DNA of 63,220 nucleotides, counting the filler, from Stramenopiles sp. TOSAG23-6 (Eukaryota): the NCBI GenBank assembly GCA_900128565.1. It is 32 parts of 32 records of this genome, joined end to end, with 100 filler letters (N's around TTAATTAATTAA, not from the genome) between each part and the next. Parts side by side here need not be neighbours in the genome. Positions count along the whole stretch, not along the records: positions 35,777 to 37,649 come from LT638495.1; 31 more parts are not named here. One strand, 5' to 3'. Below are positions 23,744-59,397 of this stretch, one piece after another. The stretch's first letter is position 1. Every line of letters begins with the position of its first letter. A program made the translations under genes and the position numbers. Under the pieces are notes generated by a model, which was given only the letters and a program-made list of their open reading frames with translations, was not told where the DNA came from and did no database searches.

Positions 23744-23900
23744 AAGTATTTTGGAAAAATATTTGAAAAAAAAAATCGTTAGGTACAAAATTTCGTACGA
23801 NNNNNNNNNNNNNNNNNNNNNNNNNNNNNNNNNNNNNNNNNNNNTTAATTAATTAANNNNNNNNNNNNNNNNNNNNNNNNNNNNNNNNNNNNNNNNNNNN

Positions 23901-25885: not shown

Positions 25886-26308
25886 CTGGGCATAGATGTC
25901 GTTCACGACCGGGACGACTATCGCAGAGAGAGGCTGTACACTATGGCGGTAGAGAAAACATTTTCCAAATGGTTGCGAAAGCTTAAGCTGTTGTTCCGGA
26001 AACGAGCGGACCGCGGTAAGTACATGAGCTGGGAAAGGTTTTTGGAGTTGATGGTTTCGTTCGACCAGATAGACGAAGAGTTTAGCCAGCGGCAGGCCAG
26101 ACTGGCTTTTCAATGGTCGAAAATGAGGGTTTCTGACGAAATGAAGGGGTACCAAAAGCTAAAGATGCTGGATTTTGTGAGTTTGCTGGAAGTCATCGCA
26201 CGGATAGCCGACTACAAAACCATACCTCCGAAAGACACGCTACGCTCCAGTACTGGGAAGTTAAAGGGGTGTTTTCTCTGCACTTTTGAGGGGAGAAAAG
26301 AGAGATGA
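25886..26308 (+). CDS. Uncharacterised EF-hand-like fragment
   Basis: MSWERFLELM...LAFQWSKMRVSDE...LDFVSLLEVIARIAD; plausible coding composition. Confidence 0.5.
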   Translation: MGIDVVHDRDDYRRERLYTMAVEKTFSKWLRKLKLLFRKRADRGKYMSWERFLELMVSFDQIDEEFSQRQARLAFQWSKMRVSDEMKGYQKLKMLDFVSLLEVIARIADYKTIPPKDTLRSSTGKLKGCFLCTFEGRKER

Positions 26309-26588
26309 ATTTTACAAGATACATAATTAAATTTATTAAAAACATACCCCACACTTACGGTAATATGAGATATCATACGAGATAGGATTAGGGTTGGATT
26401 TGAAGTAGTATTGGATTTAAAATGAGAGTTTTAAAATGAGAGTCTTAAAACATACTATATATTTTGTTTTTCATACGTTTTTTACACCCAAACAGAGGAA
26501 AACACACGCAAAAACGGCTTAAAATACCCTGTGCAAAAGCACGCTTACGAATCATCGGATTGCGACGCATTTCCCGCGACTCGCATCG

Positions 26589-27761
26589 TCATGCCTGCGA
26601 CTTAAAAGCGATGAAATCCAAGTGAGTTGGGGGCTGGAGGCGATCTACAAGGTCGTCATCATTTCTCAATGCTGCGTCAAGCATAGCGCGCTCTCGGCGA
26701 AGGTCCATGCGTTCAATGTAGTTGACAACGCTGCTCATAAACGTGTAGTCCGTCACACCAGTGCTTATTGCCGACACTTTTGCGTGCTTCAAAAACTTAT
26801 CCAGCCCCCCAATATCGACAAAATTCATTGCAATACTGATGGTTTGCCCAACGTTTAAAACTTGATGGGGAACAGCTGCCGGTATGAATATAACTTCCCC
26901 GGCTTCTAAAACACCTTCATATACAGACGCGTACTTTGCCGTTTCAAACTCATCGCTGGGTTCAAAAATATCAGAAGGAAACGTATTCGCACGTATAGGA
27001 TCTTCATAAAGCAAATGTCGGTCTCGTGGATGAACGATTCGCCACCTCTTTTTGCCAGAAACTAAGCCCATCCAAGCCGCAGAGTTGCACCAATCGGCGT
27101 GAAGCGCCGACATTGTATTTTCTCCACCAATGAATATACTCGGCCAATAATCACGATAGCCTTTCCACAGGCGGTGTGTACTCCCTGGAACGCGCTGCAT
27201 GATGTCGGCGCTGAAGTAGTTTGGCACGACAACATCGTGCAGCAACTCCGGGCACGTCGTGTTCAACGGAGCATCGTGCAAGTACAAATGCTCCAAAAGG
27301 CGCTTCTGCGACCCCGGGGCGAGGTCCTCCATCCACACGGCGTTCAAGTAGTCTCTTGCCACTACTTTCTTAAACGCTTTCATGCGGGCCCAGCTTTGGG
27401 TGTCGTCTCTGTCGAGCTTTTTCAACAAAAACTCCCGATTACTACATATGTTTCGGATGCGGTCTACGCTCCAGGGTGGAAGCCCCGGCACAGCAGCATC
27501 GTCGGCGCCATGCAAATCTCGAAAACCTTCAATTATAACCGGCGTAGATGTGTGCGCATATCTCAGGTACTCGGCGTACGAAAAGTTAGAGGCGTGGACT
27601 CGATCAATTGCAAAACGTTCACCTTCTCCAACCCTATTGTTTCCGTGTCTATCTGGCTCTCCGTAAGCCGCGTCTGACAACAGCGTTTGAACGTAAAGCG
27701 ATGGCTCAAACCCTAAAGGTTCTCCTTTCCCATTCTTTGCGAGAAGAAGAAAATATCGCAA
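26589..27761 (-). CDS. JmjC (cupin-like) domain protein, 5' partial
   Basis: YLHD, IFIGGENTMSALHAD, GKKRWRI, LEAGEVIFIPAAVPHQVLN: HxD...H Fe ligands. Confidence 0.88.
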   Translation of the reverse strand: MRYFLLLAKNGKGEPLGFEPSLYVQTLLSDAAYGEPDRHGNNRVGEGERFAIDRVHASNFSYAEYLRYAHTSTPVIIEGFRDLHGADDAAVPGLPPWSVDRIRNICSNREFLLKKLDRDDTQSWARMKAFKKVVARDYLNAVWMEDLAPGSQKRLLEHLYLHDAPLNTTCPELLHDVVVPNYFSADIMQRVPGSTHRLWKGYRDYWPSIFIGGENTMSALHADWCNSAAWMGLVSGKKRWRIVHPRDRHLLYEDPIRANTFPSDIFEPSDEFETAKYASVYEGVLEAGEVIFIPAAVPHQVLNVGQTISIAMNFVDIGGLDKFLKHAKVSAISTGVTDYTFMSSVVNYIERMDLRRERAMLDAALRNDDDLVDRLQPPTHLDFIAFKSQA

Positions 27762-27869
27762 AAGATCTCNNNNNNNNNNNNNNNNNNNNNNNNNNNNNNN
27801 NNNNNNNNNNNNNTTAATTAATTAANNNNNNNNNNNNNNNNNNNNNNNNNNNNNNNNNNNNNNNNNNNN

Positions 27870-28361: not shown

Positions 28362-29049
28362 AAACAAAATCATAATTTTTTTATGAGTCAATATTTTAAA
28401 TTCATCAATCTTTTTATTTTTTTGTCTCATTATTTCTGCCGTTTCATCTTTAAAATGAATAAAAAATTGTAGAATGATTTCTCCATCTATTTATGATATT
28501 TTCATACCATACAACACAATATATATTGTGAAAAAAAATAAAAAATTGTTTTTTCTTAGGTACAAAATTTACTATAAAAAAAAATTAGACTAAACATTGA
28601 AAAAAAAAAAAAAAAAAAAAAATTGTTAGGAACAAAATGTACTAAAAAAAAAAAAAAAACATTGAAACGAAAAGGTTAAAAAAATCATGTGTGTAAATAT
28701 TGAAAATTAAAAAAAAAATTTAAAAAAAAATTCNAAAAAAAAAAAAAAAATGTTTTTCTATGAAAATGTACTACAAAAAAAAAATATTGAAAACATAGAA
28801 AAAACGTACCAGGCGATGAATTTCCAATGACATGAGAAAAAGTACTAATTACGGATGCTCCTGCAAGAGGCGCACCGATAGACCAAACCAATATTTCTGA
28901 TATAACTAAAATATTAAATGTCGGATTTAAAATTGTCTAAATAAATCGAAAATATTTGAATTTTTTTTTTTTTTTTGTTAGGTACAAAATTTTGTATGAA
29001 AAAAAAGATTGTAAAAAAATTATTTAAAAAAAAAATTACAAAAGCAGTG

Positions 29050-29673
29050 CAAAATGTTCCGAATCCAATCATTGCAAATGCAAATACATTCCAGTTATGA
29101 TCCTTTATTGTGAATTTTTTACCTAAAAATCCTTTCGAGCTACACGCCACAGAATGTGAAAAATATTTCAATAAAAATTTAAAAAAAATCGTTAGGTACA
29201 AAATTTCGTATGAAANTTTTTTTTTTTTTTTTTTTTAAATTCATGATAAACACGAAAAAGACATACATTGTGAGCATTACAAAAAAACCTATTATACCAA
29301 GATACATTAAAAATAAAGAAATATTTGTTGAATGTGTATGGAGTATACTATCTGAATTATTTGAATGAAGCAATATAGTTGTAGGTTTCGTGTTATTTTG
29401 AAATGTTTGAGTTGTATTTGTTATATTTGTTATATTTGTTGTATTTGTTGTAAGGTTAACCCTACTAGGGTTAGGGTTATTTTGTGTTATTTTCATATTT
29501 TTTGTTTTTAAATATAGAAATGGGGTAATTGTTTCAAAAATTGACAAAATTCCCTTAGCTAACAAATTTAGTATGATAAATAAGATATATCCTTTCCAAT
29601 AAAGAAAAGAAGGTAAAATTTGACTTTTATCTATAGGGTTAGGGTTAGGGTTAGTTTTTTTTTTCATAGACAT
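29050..29673 (-). CDS. Membrane (MFS-like) protein exons separated by family introns
   Basis: Hydrophobic helices (ILFIILNLLAKGILSIFET; FLMYLGIIGFFVML); family donor near 29265. Confidence 0.45.
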
Positions 29674-31561: not shown

Positions 31562-31881
31562 CATACCTCTGCTGCTCTGTAGTTAACCCAAAAGATGCCA
31601 CTGATAGGGAAGAGAGCACACAACTACACTTTCTAGCAATTGTGTGTGAATATGAATATCCATTCCTTTTAGTATATACCGAGTGTAATATATTCATACA
31701 GTACATTGTTTTGCCATTTGGTTTAAATNNNNNNNNNNNNNNNNNNNNNNNNNNNNNNNNNNNNNNNNNNNNTTAATTAATTAANNNNNNNNNNNNNNNN
31801 NNNNNNNNNNNNNNNNNNNNNNNNNNNNTACGAAATTTTGTACCTAACGATTTNTTTTTGAAATATTTTTCCAAAATAAAT

Positions 31882-33702
31882 GGGGTAACGGCAATCCAAT
31901 GTGGATCAATAAATGGGTTAAACCATCCAACCAGGATTTCAGGAATATTTTCTATTTACAACCTGTTGATAAAGACACCATCAAATTTGGTGTGTATACG
32001 ACTGATAATAATGCTGTTGAGGCTGATATTTCATCTTTGAAAATAAATGAATGGCACCACTACTGTGGCGTTTATGATGGTTCAAAAATGAGATTGTACG
32101 TTGATGGTCAAAAAAAAGGCGAAGAAAATGTTTCAGGAGTAATCTTTAACCAAGGAATAGAGGAAACAAATCACTTGGGAATATCATTTTGTAATGCTGA
32201 TACCAACAATGATGATGATTCGGATAGCTTCATTAAAAAATATGGGTGCTATGAAGGATTTTTATCTGACGTTCGAGTTTATAAGGATCCTTTGTCAGAG
32301 ACTGAAATAAATAATATATCTACATCAGAACTCCAAAATCAGAGCGATGTTACTCTGACGATTACATTTCCGAAGGCTCGTAATATCAGGGAAGTGAGGG
32401 TGCGCCCAGTTGGTAGGTCTGGTAATACTAATGGCAATGCCTTTAAAATTCAGTTGGGCGACGAGTACACATCCAACACTGAAAGAAAAGGTAGTGAAAA
32501 CCTTGGCTACGTATGGTCGAAAAAATTTAACGAAGTGGTAAATGTTGAAACAATCACCGTCACAGTGTTGTCAGTGGGAACATATGGTCCAATATTGGAG
32601 GAGCTGATGATATATGAAGGTGGTAGTGATGTTGTCTCGAGACGGCGTAGACTTCAAGAAGAAGACGATGAAACAGATCTTGTGTTAATAGACATCTCCT
32701 GTCACAACAGTTATGGCAACACTAATACAAAATGTTGGGGTTATCCTAATCTTGACACAAAATACAACACTTACTATTTTCCCTCTAAATCTGAATACGA
32801 AAATGGTTCCGAGGATGGTATCAGGGTGACACCTACACCGGGTATAGACTGTTACTACAGTAGTTGTAGTCAGGCTTTTTGGCATATGGATATGCTTTTT
32901 GATCAATCGGATCATTTAGCAAGTACCCCTGGTGGTTGGTGGCATACAATGGTTTATAATGATAGTACGAATCACAGCTACAAATTTGAATTTAGTAGAA
33001 CATACTTTATTGGAAAGGTTAGGGTTTTAGGTTCCAAGTATGATAATAATGTAAAACCTAGTCTGTTGATTGGTAGTAAATCATGGATGAGTACCGAAGC
33101 TTTGTCCAAACTAAATGCTCCAAGTGGTTCTAAATACAGCTTCAAAAATGTATGGGACCAGGATATCAGTCCTCCCGAAGAAGTGGGCCCAAACATTCAC
33201 GCAACTATAAGAATTACAGGATCACAACAAATTCAAGAAATTGAGTTCTGGGAGTATATCCCTGGTTTGAAAAAGATTGATTTATCGTGTCCCAATAATA
33301 ATTGTTGGGCTAATTATCAATATACAATTGACGGTGTTGCTACTGTGGCTGTGACGAACTCTTCCGGAAATATCTCCAGTGACGTAGAAAATTTCTATCC
33401 AGTTTTCAATGGTTCGTTTTCTGGAGGTATCGATAATAAGTATGCAAGTCCCTATCCCTATTATCTCAGTAGTAAGGGTGTACAAAATTATCATAGTCTC
33501 GATGTTACGTTTGGATCTCCTCGAAATATACAGTACATCAAAGTTTGGCCAAATGGGAAAGATAGTCCTCCTAGCTCTAGTTTCCGTATAGTAGCTGATG
33601 ACGTTTATCAATCAGATTGGATAAATATGAATACATTAAGATATTATCCAGCTCGGCAGTGGTCCAAAAGGTTTACTCCTCCGATTAGGATAACTAAAGT
33701 TT
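31882..33702 (+). CDS. LamG-like extracellular protein, variant B of 2050-3891
   Basis: Identical to variant A except in two divergent blocks. Confidence 0.75.
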
Positions 33703-33802: not shown

Positions 33803-35257
33803 TACACGCCACTGTTGGTCTTCAGCTAAATCAACTATTGCGGGAAATAGAGACTGTGAAAGCAGTCCAATCCCAATTACTTTATTCACATCAGATAATT
33901 TTGAAATTATGTTTAATCTTACATCAGGATTTGAATCCTTCAGCAACAAAAGAAACATCGGAAGAAGATGTGAAATAGTATTTTCTTTACCAAGAACTGG
34001 TGCCATTGCCATAACATCCCCTGCTAATGCACTTCGAACATGTTCAGATGCATCTGTAGCTAAACATCTTACCTGTGGAAGTATCTTCTCTAGAGCAGAT
34101 TGAACAGAAATAAGTTTCGCAATAGCTGATACTTTAGATGCAGCTGCTGTGCGAACTTCTGCCTCATCATCCTGTAGTAAAGATTGAAAAATATCTGTCA
34201 TATGAAGTTCAGTTGAAGCACGACCTAAGGGTGTACACAACTCGACGAATTGATTTGCTACAGACCAACGCACTCGCCAAGAAGGATCTCGTGCTAGTGC
34301 AATTGCCATAGGCAGAACTTCCGTAAGAACTCCATGTACTGTGAAAGAATTATTTTACGTTTGAAATTTGTTAGGTACGAAATGTAGTACAAAAACAAAC
34401 TAATTTCAATTTTGAAATGAAAACATACATTTTCGGGGAGAATACTCGCAAGTAAAATGCAGTTATCAACGGCTAATAATCGAACTGAATCCTGGTCATC
34501 TTTACTTAACTTTGAGAATAGAGGTATTATAGAAGTTGTCACCTCTTCTAGAGTCATTTGTTGACAAAACTTCCCCATGTGGGTAGCTGCAGACCTACGT
34601 ACCATAGGTGTATCATCTTTGGAAAGTTTCGTATATATATCTATCATTGCACGCTGATTTTCTGGGGATACTCGCTTATAACCGACCCAAAATAAACCAC
34701 ATGCTGAAATACGTGAAGTAAACCAGTCTTTTGTACCCAACCTTGTCAATAAGGGAACAAAGTGCATCGAAACTGACTCAGCCGTAAGCTGTTGTATGAC
34801 AATGCAAATTGAAGCCACTGCTCGATCACGGACAGTAATTTCTTCTACCGTACATAAAGCCTCTAATGGAACTAACAGATGGTGTGCGTGGTTTGCTCCG
34901 CCGATAAGGGCAACAAATTTACCGAGCTTCTCAGCTAGAACTAGTAACACTTCATCCTCGTCATCCACAGACTCGTTGACGAAAGGAATTAGCTCATCAC
35001 GTGTTCGATCCGTTCCAAGAGCTGCAGCGATTTCATCGAGTCGCTTCATCGACTTAAGGCGCAAATTAATATCATCATGCTTTAGATCATCTATCAGCTT
35101 GGCTATCGGGTATATATCTGTTATTAGGAAAATATCTAAGAAAACAGGAGAATAGTGAGGACAAATGTTTTGTTGAATAGTGAAAAGTACAATTTTTACT
35201 TTAGAGCTAGTATAGTGCCAATAACTTGTAAAAATATTGCATACCTGTTGTCGCCAT
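33803..35257 (-). CDS. PPP2R1A: Protein phosphatase 2A scaffold (A) subunit; exons 35257-35245, 35117-34429, 34333-33803 (3' partial)
   Basis: IYPIAKLIDDLK, LGTDRTRDELIPF, DWFTSRISAC, DDTPMVRR, DQDSVRLLAV, DPSWRVR HEAT repeats; intron 1 (35118-35244) is GT-AG. Confidence 0.95.
34334..34428 (-). mobile_element. Introner-like GT-AT intron in PP2A-A
   Basis: GAA AAT|GTATGTTTT...CACAGTACAT|GGA gives LP-ENGVLTE-VLP (7-residue spacing as in human LP-QEDLEAL-VMP); the nearby CAG is out of frame. Confidence 0.9.
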
Positions 35258-35776: not shown

Positions 35777-37575
35777 TTGATTCATACTTGATGATTGTAA
35801 AGGTTGTAGAGGTTGTTTAGTTAAAACTGGCTGAGCGAGAATTGGTTCTGAGNCTTGNTNCACTGTACTATATCGGTTAATATTTTTGATATGATTAACA
35901 GAGAGGGAGCGCTTGCGTAGTATAGTAGCAAGGGTATCATTGATATCATATAACTCAGAATTTTCAACAACGGCACGAAAACGACCAGCACCAGATCTAG
36001 AAATTCGAAGACCTCGTTTTAGGCCATATGTATTTTTTAGTGCTTTTAATAATTTATACAGGGTAGGATAACATGTATTTTGTAAAAATATTTCAAAAAA
36101 AATCGTTAGGTACAAAATTTCGTACGAAAAAAAAGATAAATTTGAAATTCAATTTTGAAATCATACATGTGCTAGATAATGTATCCTTTGAAAGTGCGAA
36201 TGAAACTGTAGGATCTATTTCCATTTTAATGATTTTTTCGATGGTAGTTTTTGATTTATCAACATAGCAAAGACCTAATTCTTTTGATGAAAAATTTCTC
36301 AACCGAACTACAAATGTCCCAACATTTTCATTTTGTAGAACATCCACTGCATTATCCCACGACATTAGAGGACTAAAATATCGAAATCCACGATCAAGAA
36401 GTTCATCTTCACCAGACCAATTCATTCCCATACTATAAAAAGATTTGGCAGTACTATCATGATTTCTCTCAGATGATTTGGATATTTCGGGAATTTTGGC
36501 GGGAATTACACTTATAGGATGCAATGGTGCAATTTGTTTTCCAATCCAAGGAGCATTTCTGGTCCGATATTTGAGGCTACTCATTCTGCCCTTTCTACTT
36601 CGGGCTTTTTGGCATGACACACATACACCAACAGCAAGACCAGGTCTGAACTCGAGCGGACGATTGCATCGCACACAATTTTTTATTTTACTTTCTGTCA
36701 CCTTGGATGATGATATGGTATTCTTTTTTATTTTACTTTCTGTCACCTTGGACGATGATATGGTATTCTTTTGTACAGGTACCTGAACTGAAAAGTGATC
36801 ACCCGGCACAACTCCAGCAGGGATTGTTATTGTTGCTTCTGTAGTAATTTCTCCTATTCGAACTGAAGCATTTATTTGATCTCCTCCAACTGAATGTTCA
36901 GGACAAGTAATTAAATGCTCTTCAAATTCTTCATCAGATGTATCTTTATTATCTACATCGATTTTACTGTATGATGAAAAAATATTTCAAAAAAAAAATC
37001 ATTAGGTACAAAATTTCGTACGAAACAAAATCAAATTTGAAAAAAATAAAACATACCTTTGTACCATTGAACTTCTTTTCCTCATTTTACTCTGTATCAT
37101 TGAACTTCTTTTCCACGTGATATTTTCATCTTTTTTACGAATCCACTTTCCAGGAATTCCATTGTATAAACATTCCGCTTCATCTCCATCAACACGGAGA
37201 ACATCAGCAACTAACCAAATTTTTCTACTCCTAGAATATGTTAATATTGAATCTCCAACGTAAAGAAACTTTTTACTATCTTTGTTTGGAATAGTAAAAC
37301 TATTCTGAGTAATTAGGGTTGGGAAATTCAAATCTTGATTCAAATGTTGATTCAAATGTTGATTCAAATGTTGATGTAAATCTTGATTCAAACCATTAAT
37401 TTTTTCTGATATCGGTTCTTTTATGCCAATAATGGATGTATCCTCTTGTACTTCAATTGAAACATTTTGTTCATAGAATATCATAACTGGTTGTAAATGA
37501 CCTTTTATACATCGACTTCTGACTATATCCCAGGAGCCAACATGAATTACATTTTTATCATCAAAAAGAAGCCAT
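35777..37575 (-). CDS. Multi-exon protein with an SH2-like domain; introns 36073-36166 (GT-AT) and 36967-37056 (GT-AG)
   Basis: YFSPLMSWDNAVDVLQNENVGTFVVRL...LGLCYV...YPTLYKLL SH2 pattern; both joins are in frame. Confidence 0.65.
36967..37056 (-). mobile_element. Introner-like intron with AG duplication, giving a canonical GT-AG
   Basis: CAA AG|GTATGTTTT...core...CATACAG|T AAA. Confidence 0.8.
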
Positions 37576-37845
37576 ATATAGTAAAAAAATATACCAAATT
37601 CGAAATTCGTTAATTACTCAAAAAAAAAGAAAATATTTTTTTAAGAGTGNNNNNNNNNNNNNNNNNNNNNNNNNNNNNNNNNNNNNNNNNNNNTTAATTA
37701 ATTAANNNNNNNNNNNNNNNNNNNNNNNNNNNNNNNNNNNNNNNNNNNNTCAAAAAAAATTCTAAAAAATTTGTTAGGTACAAAATTTCGTACGAAAAAA
37801 AAAATCGATTTTTTTTTTTACCGTAAAAAAAAAAAATAAAACAGA

Positions 37846-38258
37846 CATGAAGGTAGTTCACCGTATTGTACTTGTTGAATTGCGTATATACATAATTCAC
37901 AATATCCATGTTCACCTGAATTTTTTGCTTGTACGGACATTTTAACTTTTTGTTCCATTTTTGTACTTAATTTTGTAGTTATTTTTGAAGCCATCTCTAC
38001 AAAGGATATTGGCATTGTATGTTGATTTGATGTGTTCTTTGAATACAAAGGATCGATATTATACTTATTATACATCTTCGACATGATTTCGTTCGGTCCT
38101 CTCTGTCTTTTGATTTGGCGTTCGGTGTCGTTTTTATCAAACATGTTTGAGAAAGGAATGAAAGGAGTAACGTGGAATCCGCCGCCGCTCCCCATGGTGT
38201 GAGTAAAACATGAACAAAGCCACACCGTTAAGAAACAAGAAAATTGTGTACAGTACAT
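37846..38258 (-). CDS. Secreted uncharacterised protein, first exon (second copy ~61455-61867)
   Basis: Signal-peptide-like start; GYCELCIYAIQQ; runs into a family intron with an atypical donor. Confidence 0.55.
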
Positions 38259-38770
38259 TCCTTGATATATATACTATGCTTGCTGAATGATAACGTCAGT
38301 GTTTCATATATATATATATATCAATAGGGTTTAAATTGGGTTTATTTGTAATATAGAGTTTACAATATTTGTTTTTGTTCAACAGATCAAAAGAGAGAGA
38401 GAGAGAGATCGACATAAAAACGAATAATTTTTCAAAAAAAATTTCTTCGATTCCAAAACACGAAATCTGATCATTTTGTTATAACGGTTCAATTTTTTTT
38501 TAGATTTCATTTTTTTTTAGATTTTTTTTTGGTGTTTTTTTTTTTTTTTTGTGTGTTTTTCAGCGTTTTTCAGCAAGCGATCTTTTTTAACTGTTACATC
38601 TGAATGCTCTACTGAAAAAACTAAATAGCAGCACTTTCAGATGATATAACTATTAGTAATAATAAAGTAAAGTAGAATATAGCACGATTAATTACTCGGA
38701 TGAATGACATACATCATACACCGAAGAAAAAGACACAGTAAAGAATGTGTCTTGAATAGATCCTTACACA

Positions 38771-39614
38771 ATGTCTAAAGGACGATTTTCGGCCTTTTCT
38801 TTTTTCGTAGCACGTAATGCTGCTTTAGCAGCTGGTGTCGCAACGTCTATGAGATATTTCGTAGGTGATAGCTTATGTCAACGGTACGAAAACCAAGTAA
38901 AGCGACATCATACAAAAGATAGTACTATTTCAACACACACACACGCAACGAACACAATGACAACCACAGTGTCCAAAACTAAACTATTGGAATGGTGGAA
39001 CCCATTTCGCACAAGTATATTTGCTACGTTTGGTATGGTGTACGGAATTGGTCCTGGTTATTTCTGGTATAACAAGGTTTTACCTCGTTTCTTCAAAGGA
39101 ATACCTCTACGTGCTGCAATATTTGATGTATTAGTGCAATGTCCTGCAATATATTTCCCTTTATTTTATATAACCAAGAGTACATTTGAACATTTTGATG
39201 ATGAAAGCTTTTTTGACCAACAATGGAATACAAGTCCTAACCCTAACCCTAACCCTAACCAGAAAAATGGGCTTACTTTGATACAATCTGCCTTATCCAA
39301 CTACCAGAACAATATAGTAAAAGATATGCAAGCTTTAATGTATGTTTTATTTTTTTTTCATCATGAATTTATTAATTTATTTTTTTTTTGAATTTTAAAT
39401 ATTTTTTTTCGTACGAAATTCTGTACCTAACAATTTTTTTTCAATTTTTTTTTTAAATATTTTTCCATACTACATAACATTTTGGTTACCTTGTCATTAT
39501 ATAAATTTCAGGTTTGTGCCAATTCATTTTCGCATGCCTTTCATGGGAATCGTTGGCGTTGCTTGGGTCTTCATTTTGAGTCGTATAAGAGGAGGAGGTG
39601 GTGTTTTAGATTAG
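38771..39614 (+). CDS. Mpv17/PMP22 family membrane protein; exons 38771-39339, 39476-39614
   Basis: GDSLCQ, RT..FATFG, spliced ALI-TFWLPCHYINFRFVPIHFRMPFMGIVGVAWVFILS. Confidence 0.88.
39340..39475 (+). mobile_element. Introner-like GT-AT intron
   Basis: TTA AT|GTATGTTTT...CCATACTACAT|A ACA TTT TGG restores the Mpv17 C-terminal motif. Confidence 0.85.
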
Positions 39615-39934
39615 TTTTATATNNNNNNNNNNNNNNNNNNNNNNNNNNNNNNNNNNNNNNNNNNNNTTAATTAATTAANNNNNNNNNNNNNNNNNNNNNN
39701 NNNNNNNNNNNNNNNNNNNNNNTAAAATTTTTTTTTTTTTTTGTGTTTGAGTAAGTTAAAGAACGAACAGGTTTGTGTTTTTTGTTGGATCGTATCACTC
39801 GTACATTATCATGACGTACATGTATTGTGAAAAAAAAAAAATTACAAAAAAAATTTTTTGAAAATTCGTTAGGTACAAAATTTCGTATGAAAACTAAAAA
39901 AAAAAAAAAAAAAAAAAATTAAAAAAAAAAAAAA

Positions 39935-41868: not shown

Positions 41869-42837
41869 GTAGATGACGTCATAATCCCAAATATGTCAAA
41901 AGTGTGTCGAACTCCAGGATTTCGACATCATGGGTCAAAGAATTCTCCATGGAACCCGGTAACATCAAATAATGACGGAATTTTTTTAACCAAGAAAAAT
42001 TTTCGTCAAAACTTTGTGGATACTTCAAACCCTAACCCTACTTCAAACCCTAACCACCCTGATTTGGACGTGAATGTTATTTCAAATATTGTGAAATATA
42101 ATGAAAAGAATATAAACAATGTAATTCCGTCTCATCATCATCAACAAAATATTGGAAATGTAGCTAACCCTAACCCTAATGTAGCTTTGTCTAATGTACT
42201 TAACTATGCTAATTTGTATACAAAAACGCCGTCGCCATCACCACAAAAATCGCAAAGTTCTGAAATAAAATTCAATACAAATACAAATGAAGAAGGGAAA
42301 GATAAAGATAAGGAAAATTTTGGTTTTGCAAAAAATACAAAAAAACAAATTTTTTTTGAAAAAAACAAATTTGAAAAACAATTGACTTGTAATACGGTGG
42401 ATGATGTTGATGCTTCTACACCAAAAATACCAAAAATACCAAAAATACCAAAAAATGAAAATTGTTCAGCAGATCATATTTCAACTGAAATTGTAGACAA
42501 ACAAAAAATGAAAAATGAAAATTCAATACCAAATGGATTTGATGAGTCAACAACAAAATTGTTGATTTCGTGTAATAATAGTACTGTCGATGACGTCACT
42601 CAGCAAAGTAGTTTGGAAAAACAAAACTCTATTTCGAATATACAAAATATTGATAACAGTCAAATTAAAAATAATGAAATAATTGAGACTACTCAAAACC
42701 CTAACCCTAATAAATGTACTGTTGTACACTGTGATACGATGGAGACTGCTTCATTAGTAGATGATACTACACGAAATACAGAAAATACACAAAATACACA
42801 AAATATTTTTGTAAATTTTATGAATAATTCGATGTAG
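41869..42837 (+). CDS. Asn-rich low-complexity terminal exon
   Basis: Long ORF after a family intron end. Confidence 0.5.
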   Translation, partial: VDDVIIPNMSKVCRTPGFRHHGSKNSPWNPVTSNNDGIFLTKKNFRQNFVDTSNPNPTSNPNHPDLDVNVISNIVKYNEKNINNVIPSHHHQQNIGNVANPNPNVALSNVLNYANLYTKTPSPSPQKSQSSEIKFNTNTNEEGKDKDKENFGFAKNTKKQIFFEKNKFEKQLTCNTVDDVDASTPKIPKIPKIPKNENCSADHISTEIVDKQKMKNENSIPNGFDESTTKLLISCNNSTVDDVTQQSSLEKQNSISNIQNIDNSQIKNNEIIETTQNPNPNKCTVVHCDTMETASLVDDTTRNTENTQNTQNIFVNFMNNSM

Positions 42838-43667: not shown

Positions 43668-43936
43668 AAAAAATTTTAAAAATTTTTTTTTTTTTTTTGG
43701 TAGAAAAAAAAAAATTTTTAGGTAAAAAATTTCGTATAAAAAAAAAAAAAAAAAAAAAAATCAGAATTTTACTATGAAAGAAACATACTATAGCTGATAA
43801 TGCACATGATGCATACAACATTGAATCTTCTGCTGCTGTTAATGCAATAAATGCAGCAGGCGCAGATGCCCATGCTTTGGTTGCATTAGATCTCCTCTTA
43901 CATAACAAAATAGTCTATTGTGTTGAAAAAATATTT

Positions 43937-43977
<41 letters not shown>

Positions 43978-44560
43978 TAAAAATTTTTTTAAAAAAAAAA
44001 TTTTTTTTTTTTTTTTTTTTTTCGTACAAAATTTTTTTCCTAAAAATTTTTTTTTTTTTTTACTAACCAAAAAAAAAAAAAATTTTGAAATATTTTTCCA
44101 AAATACATATGATAAGGAACGAACAATGAAAGTTTTACTCCGTACTCTACAAGATCCTCCACCGTCACTAAAGACGTATGAAGAATATGTAGGTTTTCTT
44201 TTTTAATACGAAATTTTGTACCTAAACCTAAAAAAAAAATTTAAAAAAAAAAAAAATATTTTTTCAAACTACATGGAGACACTGGAAAAAAACCCAAAGA
44301 TTTTAAAAAAGCGTTTAAAGATTTTTACAGCGTTTGTTTAATCAAAGATCCAAAAAAGAGACCTACAGCTTCGAAATTACTTTCAAAACCATTTCTTACT
44401 AAATTAACAGTTAAAACAGGTCATTTGGAATCTCTTGTGACATTGTTGCCTTCAGTTGGTATGTTTTTAGTGTCTAAAAAAAAAATTCAAAAAAAACATT
44501 TCATACGAAATTTTGTACCTAACAAAAAAACATTCAAAAAAAAATTCAAATTTTTTTTTT

Positions 44561-44642
<82 letters not shown>

Positions 44643-45225
44643 AAAAAAAAAATTTGAATTTTTTTTTGAATGTTTTTTTGTTAGGTACAAAATTTCGTAT
44701 GAAATGTTTTTTTTGAATTTTTTTTTTAGACACTAAAAACATACCAACTGAAGGCAACAATGTCACAAGAGATTCCAAATGACCTGTTTTAACTGTTAAT
44801 TTAGTAAGAAATGGTTTTGAAAGTAATTTCGAAGCTGTAGGTCTCTTTTTTGGATCTTTGATTAAACAAACGCTGTAAAAATCTTTAAACGCTTTTTTAA
44901 AATCTTTGGGTTTTTTTCCAGTGTCTCCATGTAGTTTGAAAAAATATTTTTTTTTTTTTTAAATTTTTTTTTTAGGTTTAGGTACAAAATTTCGTATTAA
45001 AAAAGAAAACCTACATATTCTTCATACGTCTTTAGTGACGGTGGAGGATCTTGTAGAGTACGGAGTAAAACTTTCATTGTTCGTTCCTTATCATATGTAT
45101 TTTGGAAAAATATTTCAAAATTTTTTTTTTTTTTGGTTAGTAAAAAAAAAAAAAAATTTTTAGGAAAAAAATTTTGTACGAAAAAAAAAAAAAAAAAAAA
45201 AATTTTTTTTTTAAAAAAATTTTTA

Positions 45226-45266
<41 letters not shown>

Positions 45267-45535
45267 AAATATTTTTTCAACACAATAGACTATTTTGTTA
45301 TGTAAGAGGAGATCTAATGCAACCAAAGCATGGGCATCTGCGCCTGCTGCATTTATTGCATTAACAGCAGCAGAAGATTCAATGTTGTATGCATCATGTG
45401 CATTATCAGCTATAGTATGTTTCTTTCATAGTAAAATTCTGATTTTTTTTTTTTTTTTTTTTTTTATACGAAATTTTTTACCTAAAAATTTTTTTTTTTC
45501 TACCAAAAAAAAAAAAAAAATTTTTAAAATTTTTT
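43668..45535. repeat. Whole-contig perfect inverted repeat centred at 44601/44602 (likely artefact)
   Basis: The second half is the exact reverse complement of the first; mirrored ORFs are identical. Confidence 0.95.
44109..44458 (+). CDS. OSR1/SPAK-like STE20 kinase C-lobe; exons 44109-44188, 44275-44458 (mirrored at 44745-45094)
   Basis: MKVLLRTLQDPPPSL...FKDFYSVCLIKDPKKRPTASKLLSKPF; GT-AT intron 44189-44274. Confidence 0.8.
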
Positions 45536-49471: not shown

Positions 49472-49574
49472 NNNNNNNNNNNNNNNNNNNNNNNNNNNNN
49501 NNNNNNNNNNNNNNNTTAATTAATTAANNNNNNNNNNNNNNNNNNNNNNNNNNNNNNNNNNNNNNNNNNNNTTT

Positions 49575-49607
<33 letters not shown>

Positions 49608-49848
49608 TACGAAACTTTATACCTAACGATTTTTATCATGATTTCGTGTTTTTTTTCACAAAACATGGCAGCAATGCGTGCGTTCTGGAAACCGTCAGAG
49701 CCAATATCTATCAAGTTGAAAGCTTTGTATTCATTATTTGCAGGTGATGATGACATGGTTGGTTTAGCAGAATTATTTAGTATATGTAGGTTTTTTTTTT
49801 TTTTTTTAAAAATTTTTTTTTTTTTTTTTTTTTAAAAAAAATTTTTTC

Positions 49849-49892
<44 letters not shown>

Positions 49893-49900
49893 CAATACAT

Positions 49901-50375: not shown

Positions 50376-51310
50376 TTAATCAAAATCGGAATCTGAATCT
50401 GATAAAATTTCCACTTCAAATTTAGTTTCTTCATTTTTGTTTTGTTGTGTAACTGAAGAATCCCAAGGAAAAGTTAAGTCAACATTATCATCATTATCAT
50501 TCATATTACCATTGACATTATTTGTATTATTAATAGTATTAGTATTATTAATAGTATTATTAATAGTATTAGTATTATCAATAGTATTAGTATTATTAAT
50601 AGTATTAGTATTATTAATAGTATTAGTATTATTAATAGTATTATCAATAGTATTAGTATTATTAATAGTAGTACCATCATCAGAATGTACAAAACTGTCT
50701 GAATCATCAGAATCGTTTAAATCGTTTAATTCCATTTCAGACAATTTTTCAAATTCTTGATTCATTGACGAGGTATTCTTATTATGATAATGAATAACTT
50801 CACCAATCGCGGAGTCATCGACAAAAATATCCCCATGAAATAAACATTTTGGAAAAATATTTGAGAAAAAAAAATCGTTAGGTACAAAATTTTCAAAAAA
50901 AAAAAAATTTGAAAAAAAATTTGAAAAAAAATAAAACATACAAAAATTTAGGAAGAGAGTCTCTCATATCAATCATAATATCTTGTAAATCCAAATAATA
51001 CTTATGTGGTATAATACCACCAGCTGCAAATGCTCTATTAATTGCACTTGCTTTCTCATCTTCAGTAATTCCACCATGTATTTTGGAAAAATATTTCAAA
51101 AAATCTAAAAAAATTGTTAGGTACAAAATTTCGTACGAAAAAAAAATTCAATTTCAAATTTAAAAAAAAAAAAAAAACATACATCTTCTTCCATCCATTG
51201 AATCTGTTTTAAACCTAGTTTCACATCACGCATCCATTGTGTACGGAGTCTACATCGACCAATATGAGGCATAAAACGACATATATCTTCCCAATCATAT
51301 CCGATGGTAC
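50376..51310 (-). CDS. Uncharacterised protein, last exons 51310-51183, 51075-50942, 50841-50376
   Basis: In-frame joins across family introns 51076-51182 (GT-AT) and 50842-50941 (GT-TT); NTINNT repeats. Confidence 0.55.
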
Positions 51311-51624: not shown

Positions 51625-52431
51625 ATGACCATCGTTTAACTCCTTAAACCATTTTCGAACGTCTGTTACAGTAGGTAAAGTTTCGTTTTTTATAAATGTA
51701 TGAAATTTCAAATCATCTTTTGAACATTTTGAACGATTTACTTTGTCATTTTTATACTTATTAGTCATTACTTTTAACTTGTCATTTTTATACTTTTCAG
51801 TCATTACTTTTGACTTTGAAAGAGACAATTCAAGTTGGTAACCACGACCATATATTGTTTTCAAATGCTGTGTGCTACCTAAACAACACAAATGACCATC
51901 AACCATAATTCCAGTTCTTGTACATAAAGCTTCACATTCCTCCATTGAATGTGTAGTAAGAATTACTGCACAATTTTTGTCTTCTATGGATATTTGATTA
52001 ATAATATTCCACATTTTTCTTCGTGACAATGGATCCATACCTGTTGATGGTTCGTCTAGAAATACAATCTTTGGATTTCCTAGAGTTGCAATAGCAACTG
52101 ATAATTTTCGTTTATTTCCACCAGAATACGTNCCTGCCATATTATCACAATCATGTAATAAATCTAATTTCACTATTTTGGCTTGAACTGCTTCATCAAT
52201 TAAATGTTTAGGAATTCCTTTTAATTTTGCATAAAAATTTAAATGTTCCCGACCTGTTAATTTTTCAAATAACGCATCAAATTGAGGACAGTAACCAATC
52301 AATTTTCGTGCTTCTGTGAGATTTTCATGAATTGAATATCCGGCTAGAAATCCATGACCTGAAGTAGGACGAATATCACCAGAAAGAATTTTAATCGTTG
52401 TTGTTTTACCAGCCATACATTGTGAAACATA

Positions 52432-52464
<33 letters not shown>

Positions 52465-53351
52465 TTGAAAAAAAAAAAAAAAAAAAAAAATTTTAATTTT
52501 TTAAAAAAAAAAAAAAAAAAAAAATTTTAAATTTTTAAAAAAAAAAAAAAAATAAAAACGTACCCATTCACTCCTAAAAGTCCAAAACATTCACCTTTAG
52601 GAATCCCAAGTGAAAAATCACTGACAGCAATTTTTGGTCCTTGAGACGTTTTATATATTTTACGGACATTTTCAAGTATAATAATATCATTCATTTTGTT
52701 TGCTTCTCCACTTGAAACACGAAATCTCTCTGTTTTTACATCCTCGTCTTCAAATGTATTCGTTTGTTTTGAGTGTTGTAAAGGACCAATATTTTTTCCA
52801 CTACTATTATTGGATATTGTTGGATCTCTCAAACAAGGAAAAAGTCTCAGTTGTATATCTTTATTATAATCAAGCCATTCTATAAAAAATACAAGAACTG
52901 AATGTATTTTGGAAAAATATTTCAAAATTTTTTTTTTTTCGTAAAAAAAAAAAAAAAAAATTGTTAGGTACAAATTTTTTTTTTTCGTAAAAAAAAAGAA
53001 AAAAATTCAATTTTTTTGTTAAAAAAAAAAATAAAACATTCATAAATGATTACATGAGAAGCTAAACAAAGACAATCTGTTCCTGCAATTTGCATATCCA
53101 ATGGTGAGAGTTCAACACCGAGACCACCAATAAAGAATGAAATTAATTCTTTCAATGTTATATTCATCAATGCTTTAGAAAAACAAAATGGAGGAAAAAT
53201 ACGAAATATCCAACGCAATTTCAATCCTAAATCTTTTGTTCCGAGTAAATCAGTTAAATCCCATAAAATAAAATCAGTAATTAACATTAAAATAGAGCAG
53301 ATAAAACAAAGCACCAACATGGCAACTTGTGCAGTTCCATATCGTTGAAAT
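51625..53351 (-). CDS. ABCA-subfamily transporter, second TMD/NBD; exons 53351-53042, 52901-52564, 52414-51625
   Basis: [26 protein letters not shown] Walker [48 protein letters not shown]. Confidence 0.95.
52415..52563 (-). mobile_element. GT-AT intron splitting Walker A
   Basis: AAT GG|GTACGTTTT...CACAATGTAT|G GCT GGT AAA is the only GT-donor register giving GVNGAGKT. Confidence 0.88.
52902..53041 (-). mobile_element. Introner-like GA-AT intron
   Basis: ATT TAT|GAATGTTTT...CCAAAATACAT|TCA GTT gives [12 protein letters not shown]. Confidence 0.75.
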
Positions 53352-55582: not shown

Positions 55583-55822
55583 AATATATTTAACCACTAA
55601 TTCATGTCTATGCAAAAAACGTGTTACAATTCCAGGAATCCGAAAGATATAATGAAGATCTGTAAATACTGACGTGAATCGTTGATGCGTGATGGCTCTA
55701 TTCAATAATAATCCAGTACCGGGATCTTCAGTTCTGTATTGTGAAGAAACACGAAAAAAAAAAAAAAAACGTTAGGTACAAAATTTCGTACGAAAAAAAA
55801 AATTTGGAATTTGAAAAAAAAA

Positions 55823-55855
<33 letters not shown>

Positions 55856-57152
55856 ATACATTCGAACACTAGCTCTTCCTTTCACACCTGGTGACATTGA
55901 AACAAATATTTTATATAGTGAATGTATAACGACTGATAACAAGTCGATGTTATTAGGGTTAGGGTTAGACACATTTTCAGAACGACTAGGGTTAGGGTTA
56001 GAAAGACTTTTGACTACTGATGGAACTGTAAATAGTTGAACTGTCATTTGTATTTTGGAACAATATTTCAAAATTTTCTATAAAAAAAAATTGTTAGGTA
56101 CAAAAATTTTTTACCAAAAGAAAAAAAAATAAATTCGAAATTAAAAAAATATATATAAAAAAAATTGTTAGGTACAAAATTTCCTATGAAAAAAAAAATA
56201 TAAATTCGAAATTGAAAAAAAAAATAAAATCATACATTGGACGCAGCACCAACATCTTCCGTACCAACACCAACAAAATATTGATGACTAACATATTCGT
56301 AATGATAAGCTAATGACAATGCAACGGCTCTTTTAAATTTGGGTAAGATTACTGGATTATGAAAAAATATCAAAATAAAATAAAGTTTGGTAAAACATAT
56401 TTTCAAATATATTTTCAAAAAAAAAAAAAATCAAAAAAAAAAAATTCATAAATTCATAAATTCATAATGAAAAAAAAAAACATACAAATTTTTGAAAAAA
56501 GAGACGTAGTCAGTGACGTCATTTGTTTTGGAAGTAAAGCACCTGATGATAGTAACGTCCCAATTGCATGTTTTGAGTTTTTCCGCACATCTAATCTTGG
56601 TGAAAGTTGATAAATTGTGTCATTTACACCACGTGATGAAGAGACATTTAATCCATTAGGGTTAGGGTTTACATAGGCAGGAAAAAGAATTCCGTCATTT
56701 TCTATTTCATCATCTTCATCTTGAAGACCAATCATATCATGAAAAAATTCAGGATCATTCATTTGTTCAACAATATCATTAAAATTATTAGCATCAAAAT
56801 CAAAATATTCCTCATCCACATCATCAAAATCAGCATCATCAATATATTCGTCATCAACCTCAACATCATCATCGTCAATATATTCGTCATCATCAACATC
56901 ATCATCATCATCATCATCATCAACAGCATCATTCATATTAATATATTCATCCTCAAAAATATCAGGGGGAAGATCATCAACATATTTATCAACATAATCA
57001 TCACCATCATCAATCATTGCATTTGAAGTAACACTAGGGTTAGGGTTATTTGAAGTAACACTAGGGTTAGGGGTTTCTGTATTTGAGTATTCTTCATTAT
57101 TATATTCATTATAACGATTCATTAAGTCCTCCAAATCATTTGAACTATCCAT
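55583..57152 (-). CDS. UBR1/PRT6-like N-degron E3 ligase fragment; introns 56352-56485 (GT-AG), 56048-56235 (GT-AA), 55734-55859 (GT-AG)
   Basis: FKRAVALSL..HY...MTVQLFTVPSV...LLSVVI...RFTSVFTDLHYI matches UBR1 (YKKLFA..F..YY...SVQMFTVPTL...RV..VICDLKYI). Confidence 0.75.
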
Positions 57153-58335: not shown

Positions 58336-59021
58336 TGATAAAGTCTTCCACGTTTACTCAGATTTTCATTTTACTATTAAGCTTTCCTTTAGCGCTTTCT
58401 CAATGCAAGTGCCGAGATCCTGGTTGTAAAGATACAGAAGGTCCTCACTCAGGCACTCTCCGAAATTCGAGTTTCTGCTCCTCTAGAACTACTGAGTTTG
58501 ATTGCCAAGGTGGATGTAGACAAGACTTTACTGGATCAGGTCATGCTAGTGTGGGGAACAATCTTTGTATTTGGGATAATCAAAATGAAAGCAAAGCCAC
58601 CGCAAAAGTAGGTGGAAAGAATTTTCATGACACGGAAATTAATAACCGGGGGCATGTTTGCGCTAGAACATACTGCTCTGGAAATATGGTATGTTGACTT
58701 TAGTTTATTTTTTTCTCATTTATTAGTTATATGAATCTTCAATTACACTCACGATAATTCAATTGTATAATACATTTTACTTAATAGGTCCATAACGGTG
58801 ACTTTGTACCTATAAGAGATTCAGCGGGAGATTTTTATTTGGAAGAAAAAAATTTTTCATGCCCCAGTGGATACAATGCTATTTCTGGAGGTGCTTATCA
58901 CAAAAAAGGTAATGGTGTTGGAGGTATTGAATGGGCAGAATTATCTTGGAATGGTAACAAGTGGGTGGTACCAACGACAGAGGACGCAACAAAAATTAGT
59001 AAATGTTGTGAAGTGTGCACT
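58336..59021 (+). CDS. Secreted Cys-rich protein; exons 58336-58688, 58788-59021
   Basis: Signal peptide MIKSSTFTQIFILLLSFPLALS; canonical GT-AG intron 58689-58787 joins in frame; followed by family intron 59022-59118. Confidence 0.7.
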
Positions 59022-59397
59022 GTACGTTTTCAGTATGAATTTCAATTTTTTCAATTTTTTTTTTCGTACGAAATTTCGTACCTAACAAATTTCGAATTTA
59101 ATTTTTTTCACAATACATGAACGTATACAAAGACTTTCTAAAGGACACCTTTGTTTATCGACATCTCTCGCTTTTTGCTTTGTCGCATGTCGTTTAAATT
59201 TTGAACCTGTACGTTTTTTTTTTTTTATTGAATTTTTTTTTTTTTTTTCATACGAAATGTTGTACCTAAGAATTGAATTTTTTTTTTTTTTTTTTTNNNN
59301 NNNNNNNNNNNNNNNNNNNNNNNNNNNNNNNNNNNNNNNNTTAATTAATTAANNNNNNNNNNNNNNNNNNNNNNNNNNNNNNNNNNNNNNNNNNNNA

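What the first reader, a model, noticed from the sequence alone, without database searches (positions are those of the whole stretch)
36967..37056. The 3' dinucleotide usually copies the end of the upstream exon (2-bp TSD rule)
Seen: most copies are AT|GT...AT|, but 36967-37056 is AG|GT...AG| and 50842-50941 is TT|GT...TT|. The inferred cut sits at a fixed distance from the TTTTCCAAAA/TTTCACAA block whatever the dinucleotide (AT, TT, AG, and AA at 56048). Inference: a 2-bp target-site duplication with AT preference supplies the intron end, making insertion seamless, and the 3' site is chosen by position or upstream motif rather than by AG. Exceptions (GG..AT at 52415, AT..AG at 55734, AT..AA at 56048, TT..AG at 56352) suggest later drift, sometimes towards AG.
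Basis: partly seen in the sequence, partly recalled or inferred. Interest (0 to 1): 0.8.

Follow-up and report, generated by a model that had tools for sequence, protein, structure and literature searches.

The report
Repeated introns ending in AT, not AG
An unidentified AT-rich eukaryote carries one family of about 100-base repeated introns that start with GT but mostly end in AT after an exon that also ends in AT; a 2-base insertion duplication could explain this, but this window cannot prove it.

Summary
The sequence facts hold. 36967-37056 (- strand) is AG|GT...AG| and 50842-50941 is TT|GT...TT|, both at the position where other copies end in AT.

I curated 31 family introns with both ends present:
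- The upstream exon ends in AT in 23, against an AT share of 10-12% in the window.
- The intron ends in AT in 23, and both are AT in 20.
- GT...AT borders are backed by protein colinearity in PP2A-A and by the ABC Walker A loop.
- An AG between the branch-like CTAAC and the cut goes unused in 9 of 25 copies.

The copying rule is not established. Outside AT/AT only 2 of 11 pairs match, and one of these is the canonical AG/AG. The excess of matches has p = 0.016 under free shuffling and p = 0.21 when shuffled within non-AT exon ends. Matching falls with divergence: 16 of 18 against 6 of 13. That fits drift, but it also fits decay of two separate AT preferences. Inverted ends are only 4 bases long. 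No spliced RNA and no empty site could be obtained.

Verdict: a real non-AG introner family. A 2-bp duplication is plausible (about 0.45) but unproven.

The parts
36967..37056 (-). Family intron, 90 nt, AG|GT...AG|. Little diverged: 0, 1 and 2 mismatches in the 5' block, core and tail.
   Evidence: In frame with 185 open codons upstream and 291 downstream.
50842..50941 (-). Family intron, 100 nt, TT|GT...TT| at the position-homologous cut. The junction is unverified.
   Evidence: in frame, 68 and 155 codons. No homologue or Pfam family for the flanking exons.
34334..34428 (-). Family intron in PP2A-A, AT|GT...AT|. An unused AG lies 5 nt before the cut.
   Evidence: colinear with P0001 (67-70% identity) with no gap across the junction. 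AG at distance 32 of 37.
52415..52563 (-). Diverged family intron in an ABCA-type gene, GG|GT...AT|. Discordant.
   Evidence: GLLGVN.GAGKTTT; exon 2 starts at ABC_tran profile position 22.
55734..55859 (-). Family intron, AT|GT...AG|. Discordant.
   Evidence: 72 and 74 codons open.
56048..56235 (-). Family intron with an internally duplicated core, AT|GT...AA|. Discordant.
   Evidence: 65 and 91 codons open.
56352..56485 (-). Diverged family intron, TT|GT...AG|. Discordant.
59022..59118 (+). Family intron, CT|GT...AT|.
   Evidence: 78 and 59 codons open.
29149..29266 (-). Family intron, AT|GT...GT| at the position-homologous cut. Discordant.
   Evidence: 160 and 78 codons open. Other in-frame cuts exist.
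28937..29039 (-). Family-like intron, TT|GTAATT...TTTAG|. Discordant.
28521..28809 (-). Long family-like intron with two cores, or two introns with a micro-exon between them. TG|GT...AT|.
   Evidence: 42 and 23 codons open. The anatomy is uncertain.
51076..51182 (-). Near-consensus family intron, AT|GT...AT|. One mismatch in total over the three blocks.
35118..35244 (-). Non-family intron, canonical AG|GTATGC...AACAG|, after the start codon of PP2A-A.
   Evidence: and my reading of the frame; the alignment starts at the junction codon.
58689..58787 (+). Non-family intron, canonical TG|GTATGT...AATAG|.
   Evidence: 165 and 110 codons open. A cut at the internal ACAT would give a stop.

Best explanation
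The roughly 90-190-base interruptions are copies of one introner, a mobile element that becomes a spliceosomal intron where it lands. Its consensus runs as follows: GTATGTTTTATTTT at the 5' end; a small hairpin, CGTACGAAATTTTGTAC, abutting a branch-like CTAAC; then a T-rich stretch; then GAAATATTTTT(C)CA(A/C)AATAC followed by two bases.

Shown:
- The family exists, and it sits in the sense strand of unrelated genes.
- Removing GT...NN restores the frame.
- The terminal NN is AT in 23 of 31 copies. At the same position it can also be AG, AA, GT or TT.
- The preceding exon ends in AT in 23 of 31 copies.

Inferred:
- The element proper is GTAT...ATAC. It inserts with a 2-base staggered cut, usually at AT, so the target dinucleotide flanks it on both sides.
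- The spliceosome cuts at the element's first base and just after the downstream copy, which removes the element plus one copy without a scar.
- This requires a 3' cut set by position relative to the element's 3' block rather than by AG.
- Older copies have drifted at either copy, partly towards AG.
For: - Family size: 26 and 37 motif hits against 1.2 and 0.3 expected. A 99-nt consensus was built from 22 of the 31 curated copies, hand-picked.
- Frame: 26 of 31 curated copies have at least 30 open codons on both sides at the stated cut. An arbitrary cut would be in frame one time in three.
- GT...AT is backed by a gap-free match to a 67%-identical PP2A-A and by the Walker A loop, with exon 2 starting at ABC_tran position 22.
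- Exon-end AT is 23 of 31 against 10-12% (p about 1e-15). AT status at the two ends is associated: odds ratio 11, p = 0.013.
- The seven least diverged copies all match, including AG/AG. Matching is 16 of 18 in less diverged copies and 6 of 13 in more diverged ones, p = 0.017.
- Non-AT exact matches number 2, with p = 0.016 when shuffled among all 31.
- Upstream AGs are unused in 9 of 25 copies.
- Canonical GT-AG introns coexist with the family.
Against: - No spliced RNA was obtained.
- Beyond AT/AT only 2 of 11 pairs match. Shuffling within the 8 non-AT exon ends gives p = 0.21.
- AG/AG is the canonical layout and needs no duplication.
- The other two complete introns after a TT exon end finish in AG. 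GG, CT and TG exon ends go with AT.
- The TT/TT cut is unverified.
- Terminal inverted repeats are only 4 bases. The mean is 6.0 of 14 matches in the duplication register, against 6.7 and 6.1 in two other registers.
- No empty site and no autonomous partner was seen.
- The decay of matching with divergence is equally expected if an element-borne AT and an AT target preference decay separately.
- I recall no transposon superfamily with a 2-bp AT duplication (recalled, not tested).
Confidence: 0.45

Rival explanations
1. There is no duplication. The terminal AT belongs to the element, whose intron consensus is ...ATACAT. The exon-end AT is a separate target or proto-splice preference, for example of a reverse-splicing or other non-transposase spread like that proposed for fungal introner-like elements. 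On this view the AG/AG and TT/TT pairs are coincidences.
For: - Only 4-base inverted ends.
- 2 of 11 matches outside AT/AT, and p = 0.21 in the stratified shuffle.
- Several fairly young discordant copies, AT..AG and AT..AA, each with 6 mismatches.
- In ordinary introns the exon end and the intron end also share AG without any duplication (established knowledge).
Against: - It needs the coincidence that the preferred target dinucleotide equals the element's own last two bases.
- A young copy has both ends changed to AG.
- The full shuffle gives p = 0.016.
- An AT exon end is not what U1 pairing would select (established knowledge; this organism's U1 is unknown).
Confidence: 0.3
2. The 3' end is set by a minor-spliceosome-like rule. 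The conserved tail block (TTTTCCAAAA / TTTCACAA) is the real branch site, and the cut falls a fixed few bases after it whatever the dinucleotide, as in U12-type introns. This could hold with or without a duplication.
For: - The cut is 5 bases after the block in the AT, AG, AA, TT and GT variants.
- U12-type introns tolerate GT-AT and AT-AN ends (passages of PMC1557818).
Against: - The 5' end is GTATGTTTT, not RTATCCTT.
- A yeast-like CTAAC lies 33-62 bases upstream of the cut.
- A's of the tail block lie only about 6-9 bases from the cut.
- Two tail variants exist.
- No snRNA lies in the window, so the machinery is untested.
Confidence: 0.1
3. The true borders are shifted by two bases, giving AT...AC introns (C|ATGTATG...ATAC|ATG). 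The mRNA for AT/AT copies would be identical, and there would be no unusual 3' end.
For: For the 20 AT/AT copies the two registers give the same product. Standard aligners would choose AT-AC (my reasoning).
Against: - The 8 copies with other exon ends would then start with CT, TT, GG, AG or TG, while GTAYG stays constant.
- In the ABC gene the shifted register replaces the Walker A glycine.
- Four copies end in AG at the homologous position (37056, 55859, 56485 and 29039).
Confidence: 0.05
4. The elements are cut out of DNA, like the eliminated sequences of ciliates that leave one copy of a flanking dinucleotide. On this view they are not spliced from RNA.
For: - Identical short direct repeats flank the elements.
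- No spliced joint was seen in the RNA contigs.
Against: - A yeast-like GTATGT and CTAAC are conserved in every good copy.
- The elements are present in essentially every gene of the assembled DNA.
- The standard genetic code reads the exons.
Confidence: 0.05

Closest known systems
Introner elements of Micromonas pusilla and Aureococcus (MITE-like introners)
   Same: Hundreds of near-identical short introns in unrelated genes. Short flanking duplication. One splice site is carried by the element and the other is co-opted from the duplication, so removal is scarless (review PMC11282704, passages read).
   Different: - There the duplication is 3 bases with clear inverted repeats, and the co-opted 3' site is a proper AG.
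- Here the putative duplication is 2 bases, usually AT, so the 3' end is non-AG.
- Inverted ends here are only 4 bases.
Non-canonical MITE-derived introns of Fritillaria borealis
   Same: Transposon-derived introns with duplications at the borders and non-AG 3' ends (AG-AC, AG-AT), removed by a modified major spliceosome. Rare old GT-AG introns coexist with them (PMC11282704 passages; abstract of 10.1101/2025.08.15.670264).
   Different: In Fritillaria the 5' end is also non-GT. Here GTAYG is constant and only the 3' dinucleotide departs from the rule.
Amoebophrya introners; non-conventional introns of euglenids and hemistasiid diplonemids
   Same: Repeated non-canonical introns in which 3-5-base direct repeats overlap the borders, making the cut ambiguous (PMC7789003 passages; PMC12621601 abstract and section 5).
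   Different: Those have 8-20-base inverted repeats or extensive end pairing and no conserved terminal dinucleotides. Here the ends pair over 4 bases only, the folds are weak (z from +0.2 to -3.9), T4-to-C copies show no compensating change (my reading), and the 5' GT, the branch CTAAC and the 3' A at -2 are conserved.
U12-type introns with non-canonical ends (GT-AT, AT-AN)
   Same: GT-AT is a documented rare pair: 7 of 66 non-canonical U12-type introns in four species. The 3' dinucleotide is relaxed (PMC1557818 passages).
   Different: The 5' and branch consensus of U12 introns are absent. The branch-like motif lies 33-62 bases from the cut.

Membership tests
Introner (intron-generating mobile element) | Many near-identical introns at unrelated sites | tested here: met
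   26 and 37 motif hits against 1.2 and 0.3 expected. 31 curated copies lie in unrelated genes.
Introner (intron-generating mobile element) | Removing each copy restores the coding frame | tested here: met
   26 of 31 copies have at least 30 open codons on both sides. The PP2A-A junction is colinear with a homologue. The Walker A loop is restored. Two copies conflict in frame, and a third is in frame only against a 68-codon upstream frame, not its 349-codon one.
Introner (intron-generating mobile element) | Spliced out of RNA | tested here: inconclusive
   RNA-library contigs were laid on 49572-51438 and gave no spliced joint. No contig could be counted as bridging an intron border.
MITE / cut-and-paste DNA transposon | Target-site duplication of fixed length | tested here: inconclusive
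   22 of 31 pairs match, but 20 of these are AT/AT. Non-AT matches: 2 among the 8 non-AT exon ends, p = 0.016 or 0.21 depending on the null. No empty sites were available.
MITE / cut-and-paste DNA transposon | Terminal inverted repeats | tested here: not met
   Only GTAT/ATAC. Mean 6.0 of 14 matches, no better than shifted registers.
MITE / cut-and-paste DNA transposon | Autonomous partner encoding a transposase | not testable with these tools
   No genome is held for this window. None was seen in the 63 kb.
Canonical U2-type GT-AG intron | 3' terminal AG, usually the first usable AG after the branch | tested here: not met
   5 of 31 copies end in AG. 9 of 25 copies skip an AG after CTAAC.
U12-type intron | 5' RTATCCTT, and a TCCTTAAC branch site about 10-20 bases from the 3' end | tested here: not met
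   The consensus is GTATGTTTT, and CTAAC lies 33-62 bases from the end. The U12 motifs are recalled, not taken from a call.
Euglenid / Amoebophrya-type non-conventional intron | Variable borders and stable pairing of the intron ends | tested here: not met
   The 5' GT is constant. A 4-5 bp end helix appears in 2 of 8 minimum-energy folds. Seven of 8 folds have z-scores between +0.2 and -1.6, and one has -3.9.

The most novel reading that the evidence does not exclude
In this lineage the major spliceosome picks the 3' splice site by its position at the end of an element-borne block, whatever the last two bases are. That allows a transposon that duplicates an arbitrary 2-base target, usually AT, to seed most of the genome's introns without scars. 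It would be a GT-conserved, AG-independent mode of splicing, distinct from those of Fritillaria, Amoebophrya and euglenids.
Probability: 0.3. Interest if true: 0.85.

Novelty: new variant of a known kind. Interest (0 to 1): 0.6.

Why it matters
Scarless intron creation by a transposon normally depends on the duplication happening to supply an AG. If a 2-base duplication of any sequence can serve as the 3' end here, two things follow.
- Target choice no longer limits where introns can be gained.
- The requirement for a terminal AG, one of the most conserved rules of splicing, has been relaxed while GT and the branch site were kept.

That would give a clean natural system for asking how the second step of splicing finds its site. 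It would also explain why such a genome defeats standard gene prediction and introner surveys, which expect AG or AC ends (PMC12130899 methods passage).

If the rule is wrong, the family is still a rare case of GT...AT introns in bulk. In the held library, five full-text searches found no paper that describes one.

Tried and rejected
- RNA: one study of seawater RNA libraries holds 8-10% of the sampled words. Its contigs were laid on 49572-51438:
  - 498 and 451 contigs were laid, almost all on the intron's 3' half, with summed depth of 2000-7500.
  - A few exon pieces had depth 3-8 and 0-4 differences.
  - There was no spliced joint, and no piece had 31 letters on both sides of a border.
  - So there is no RNA evidence either way.
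  - The single joint, 51097 to 51334, joins two element copies and carries 4 foreign letters.
- More copies elsewhere: exact scans for the 19-base core gave 0 hits in viral contigs, 3 in metagenome contigs and 1 in prokaryote genome contigs, a Bacteroidales MAG. All four hits are chance matches without the element.
- Junction of the TT/TT copy:
  - Exon 2 has no relative among proteins of 84-270 aa.
  - Exon 1 gave one spurious repeat-protein hit among 1.84 billion representatives.
  - Neither exon has a Pfam family.
- Organism: no Rfam match in the window. PP2A-A relatives are at most 67% identical and taxonomically scattered. A 613-aa exon has no relative of 337-1073 aa. The taxon is left undetermined.
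- End-pairing model: the folds are weak, and copies with GTAC instead of GTAT show no compensating change (my reading).
- A 3-base ATG or 4-base CATG duplication: exon -3 is C in 12 of 33 and exon +1 is G in 19 of 36, and very young copies have A or T at +1. I rejected this.
- Earlier notes of this scan: nothing found.
- Supplements of the papers were not opened.

Full report
**What the window is.** The 63,220 bases are about 33 separate contigs of roughly 1.9 kb. They are ordered by length and joined by N44-TTAATTAATTAA-N44 spacers. The DNA is AT-rich, 20-44% G+C. Exons read well in the standard code. No whole genome is held.

- No Rfam family matches.
- The best PP2A-A relative is an unnamed transcript at 67% identity, and named relatives at 48-58% are scattered over eukaryotes.
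- A 613-aa exon has no relative of similar length at all.

**The repeated intron.**
- A 5' block, GTATGTTTTATTTTTT, occurs 26 times with up to 2 mismatches, against 1.2 expected.
- A core, TTTTGTACCTAAYGAT, occurs 37 times, against 0.3 expected.
- Copies lie on both strands, always in the sense of the flanking open frames.
- A consensus of 22 of the 31 curated copies, hand-picked, is 99 nt long. It starts with GTATGTTTT. A small hairpin, CGTACGAAATTTTGTAC, runs into CTAAC. It ends GAAATATTTTT(C)CA(A/C)AATACAT.
- The yeast-like GTATGT and CTAAC argue for spliceosomal removal. That is an inference from established consensus sequences.

**Curated set.** I worked from the pattern hits and from inspection. 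I kept every intron whose two ends lie inside a contig. That gave 31 family or family-like introns and 2 unrelated ones.

Rows dropped before counting:
- Duplicates: 62938 duplicates 39340, and 45014 duplicates 44189.
- Copies that lose their 3' end at a contig end or a run of N: 6081, 15992, 41357, 37846 (= 61455), 51624, 57483, 55582, 59209 and 44459 (= 44744).
- Copies that lose their 5' end: those near 2011 (= 31843), 11973, 13996, 17942, 47628, 49622, 53398, 51356, 41521, 39873, 23783, 21799, 17766, 7800 and 9801.

The 3' end was placed at the position homologous to the consensus end and then checked for frame. Of the 31, 26 have at least 30 open codons on both sides in one phase.

The other five:
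- 50057 is followed by 16 codons and a stop.
- 28809 is followed by 23 codons and a stop.
- 23266 has an N close by.
- 49786 and 7476 conflict in frame.

16700 counts among the 26 only against a 68-codon upstream frame, not its 349-codon one. In 49786, 7476 and 16700, reading from the long upstream frame through the consensus cut gives T|GA. Because the introns are T-rich and often open, frame alone is a modest test. An arbitrary cut is in frame one time in three.

**Are the ends really GT...AT?** Yes, at the sites that can be checked.
- In PP2A-A the cut ...CCCGAAAAT|GT...CACAGTACAT|GGAGTT gives ...LPEN|GVLTEVLP... This aligns without a gap to ...LPEGQKLDQVLP... of P0001, at 67-70% identity on both sides. 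The AG five bases upstream would shift the frame.
- In the ABCA-type gene...GLLGVNG|AGKTTT... is restored only by GG|GT...AT| or by the equivalent one-base shift. Exon 2 starts at ABC_tran profile position 22 with its first residue.
- A two-base shift to AT...AC borders gives the same mRNA for AT/AT copies. It fails in the ABC gene, and it would make the 5' end variable in the eight copies whose exon does not end in AT.
- In 9 of 25 copies with a CTAAN motif, an AG lies between it and the inferred cut, at 10-32 bases, and is not used.
- Two unrelated introns are canonical: AG|GTATGC...AACAG| after the PP2A-A start codon and TG|GTATGT...AATAG| at 58689-58787. AG is therefore still usable in this organism.

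Counts over the 31 family introns:
- The exon ends in AT in 23, against an AT share of 10.2% in the window and 12.0% before any GT.
- The intron ends in AT in 23, and both are AT in 20.
- After an AT exon end, the other intron ends are AA, AG and GT.
- After the eight other exon ends, the pairs are CT/AG (or CT/AT), CT/AT, TT/AG, GG/AT, TT/TT, AG/AG, TT/AG and TG/AT.

The TT/TT cut is one of four in-frame options in a T-rich stretch (my reading). It could not be checked by homology or by RNA.

**Does the 3' dinucleotide copy the exon end?** The tests point in different directions.
- AT status at the two ends is associated: 20, 3, 3, 5; odds ratio 11; p = 0.013.
- Exact non-AT matches number 2. 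Shuffling intron ends among all 31 gives p = 0.016. Shuffling only among the 8 non-AT exon ends, which respects the fact that both ends tend to be non-AT in the same (older) copies, gives p = 0.21.
- A first shuffle within the 11 non-AT/AT pairs gave p = 0.49. That test is biased, because it can recreate AT/AT pairs.
- Matching declines with divergence from the family blocks: 16 of 18 copies with at most 8 mismatches, against 6 of 13 with more, p = 0.017. Non-AT/AT copies are more diverged, median 12 against 7, p = 0.03.
It fits equally well a model in which an element-borne AT and an AT target preference decay separately.
- The most telling item is the young AG/AG copy (3 mismatches). However, AG|GT...AG| is also the canonical layout.

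**Transposon hallmarks.**
- The termini GTAT...ATAC are inverted over 4 bases only. Comparing 14 bases at each end gives 6.0 matches in the duplication register, against 6.7 and 6.1 in two other registers.
- Exon -3 is C in 12 of 33 and exon +1 is G in 19 of 36. Very young copies have A or T at +1. A 3- or 4-base duplication (ATG, CATG) is therefore unlikely.
- RNA folds are weak. A 4-5 bp end helix appears in 2 of 8 minimum-energy structures. GTAC variants show no compensating change.
- Intron phases are spread over 0, 1 and 2 (about 10, 6 and 15). That suits recent insertion.

**Mechanism, with odds.**
- I put about 0.3 on the model without duplication.
- Smaller weights go to a U12-like distance rule, an AT-AC register and DNA-level excision.

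What I regard as established with high confidence is narrower: a large introner family whose 3' ends are mostly AT, at a fixed place after a conserved block, coexisting with canonical introns.

**Comparison with what is known.**
- Co-option of a splice site from a duplication is known for Micromonas-type introners (PMC11282704, passages).
- Non-canonical transposon-derived introns with direct repeats at their borders are known from Fritillaria (same review; abstract of 10.1101/2025.08.15.670264), from Amoebophrya (PMC7789003, passages), and from euglenids and hemistasiid diplonemids (PMC12621601, abstract and section 5).
- GT-AT occurs as a rare U12-type pair (PMC1557818, passages).
- The present family differs from all of these. 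It keeps a strict GT and branch motif, lacks long inverted ends or end pairing, and departs only at the 3' dinucleotide.
- Five full-text searches found no description of a genome with GT...AT introns in bulk. Subscription journals and supplements were not searched.
- Introner surveys start from annotated introns and expect AG or AC ends (PMC12130899, methods passage). Such a family in an unannotated draft would be missed.

Noticed in passing
whole window, e.g. 39239-39257 (+), 42028-42040 (+), 55954-55999 (-), 29634-29652 (-): The telomere-like AACCCTAACCCTA occurs 24 times against 0 expected. In the cases I looked at it lies in the sense strand of coding exons, where it reads Asn-Pro-Asn-Pro. 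One copy lies inside an intron, at 18181-18193. Origin unknown.
   Followed up: partly
window 1-63220: The window is a chain of about 33 contigs of roughly 1.9 kb with six-frame-stop spacers. Contig 37750-39622 is nearly duplicated at 61359-63220, and 1997-3891 has a diverged twin at 31829-33702. Contig 43668-45535 is an inverted duplication of itself.
   Followed up: partly
49786-49900 (+), 7363-7476 (-), 16585-16700 (-): In three family introns the consensus cut joins an exon ending in T to GA, which gives an in-frame TGA. In at least 7476 the downstream kinase frame is off by one base. The cause could be a sequencing error, a shifted cut or a dead copy; I could not decide.
   Followed up: partly
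e.g. 51114-51140 (-), in most copies: A conserved 6-bp hairpin, GTACGA(AATT)TTGTAC, sits directly in front of the branch-like CTAAC. It is predicted in 7 of the 8 folded copies that carry it.
   Followed up: partly
52902-53041 (-): A family intron begins with GAATGTTTT instead of GT, and the junction is in frame (121 and 124 codons open).
   Followed up: no
49572-51438: In two seawater RNA libraries of one study, hundreds of contigs match the 3' half of the element, 153 and 138 of them at 99% or more. A few exon pieces match with 0-4 differences. The same or a very close organism is therefore present there.
   Followed up: partly
25886-27769: One contig has 43.6% G+C, a 410-aa open frame at 26589..27821 and no family intron. 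It may come from another genome compartment or organism.
   Followed up: no
23745-23800 (-): A copy without its 5' end (lost at the contig end) finishes ...CCAAAATACTT|GCTG. That is TT at the fixed position. Another such copy near 13996 (+) finishes ...CACAATATAG|. The matching exon ends are not available.
   Followed up: no
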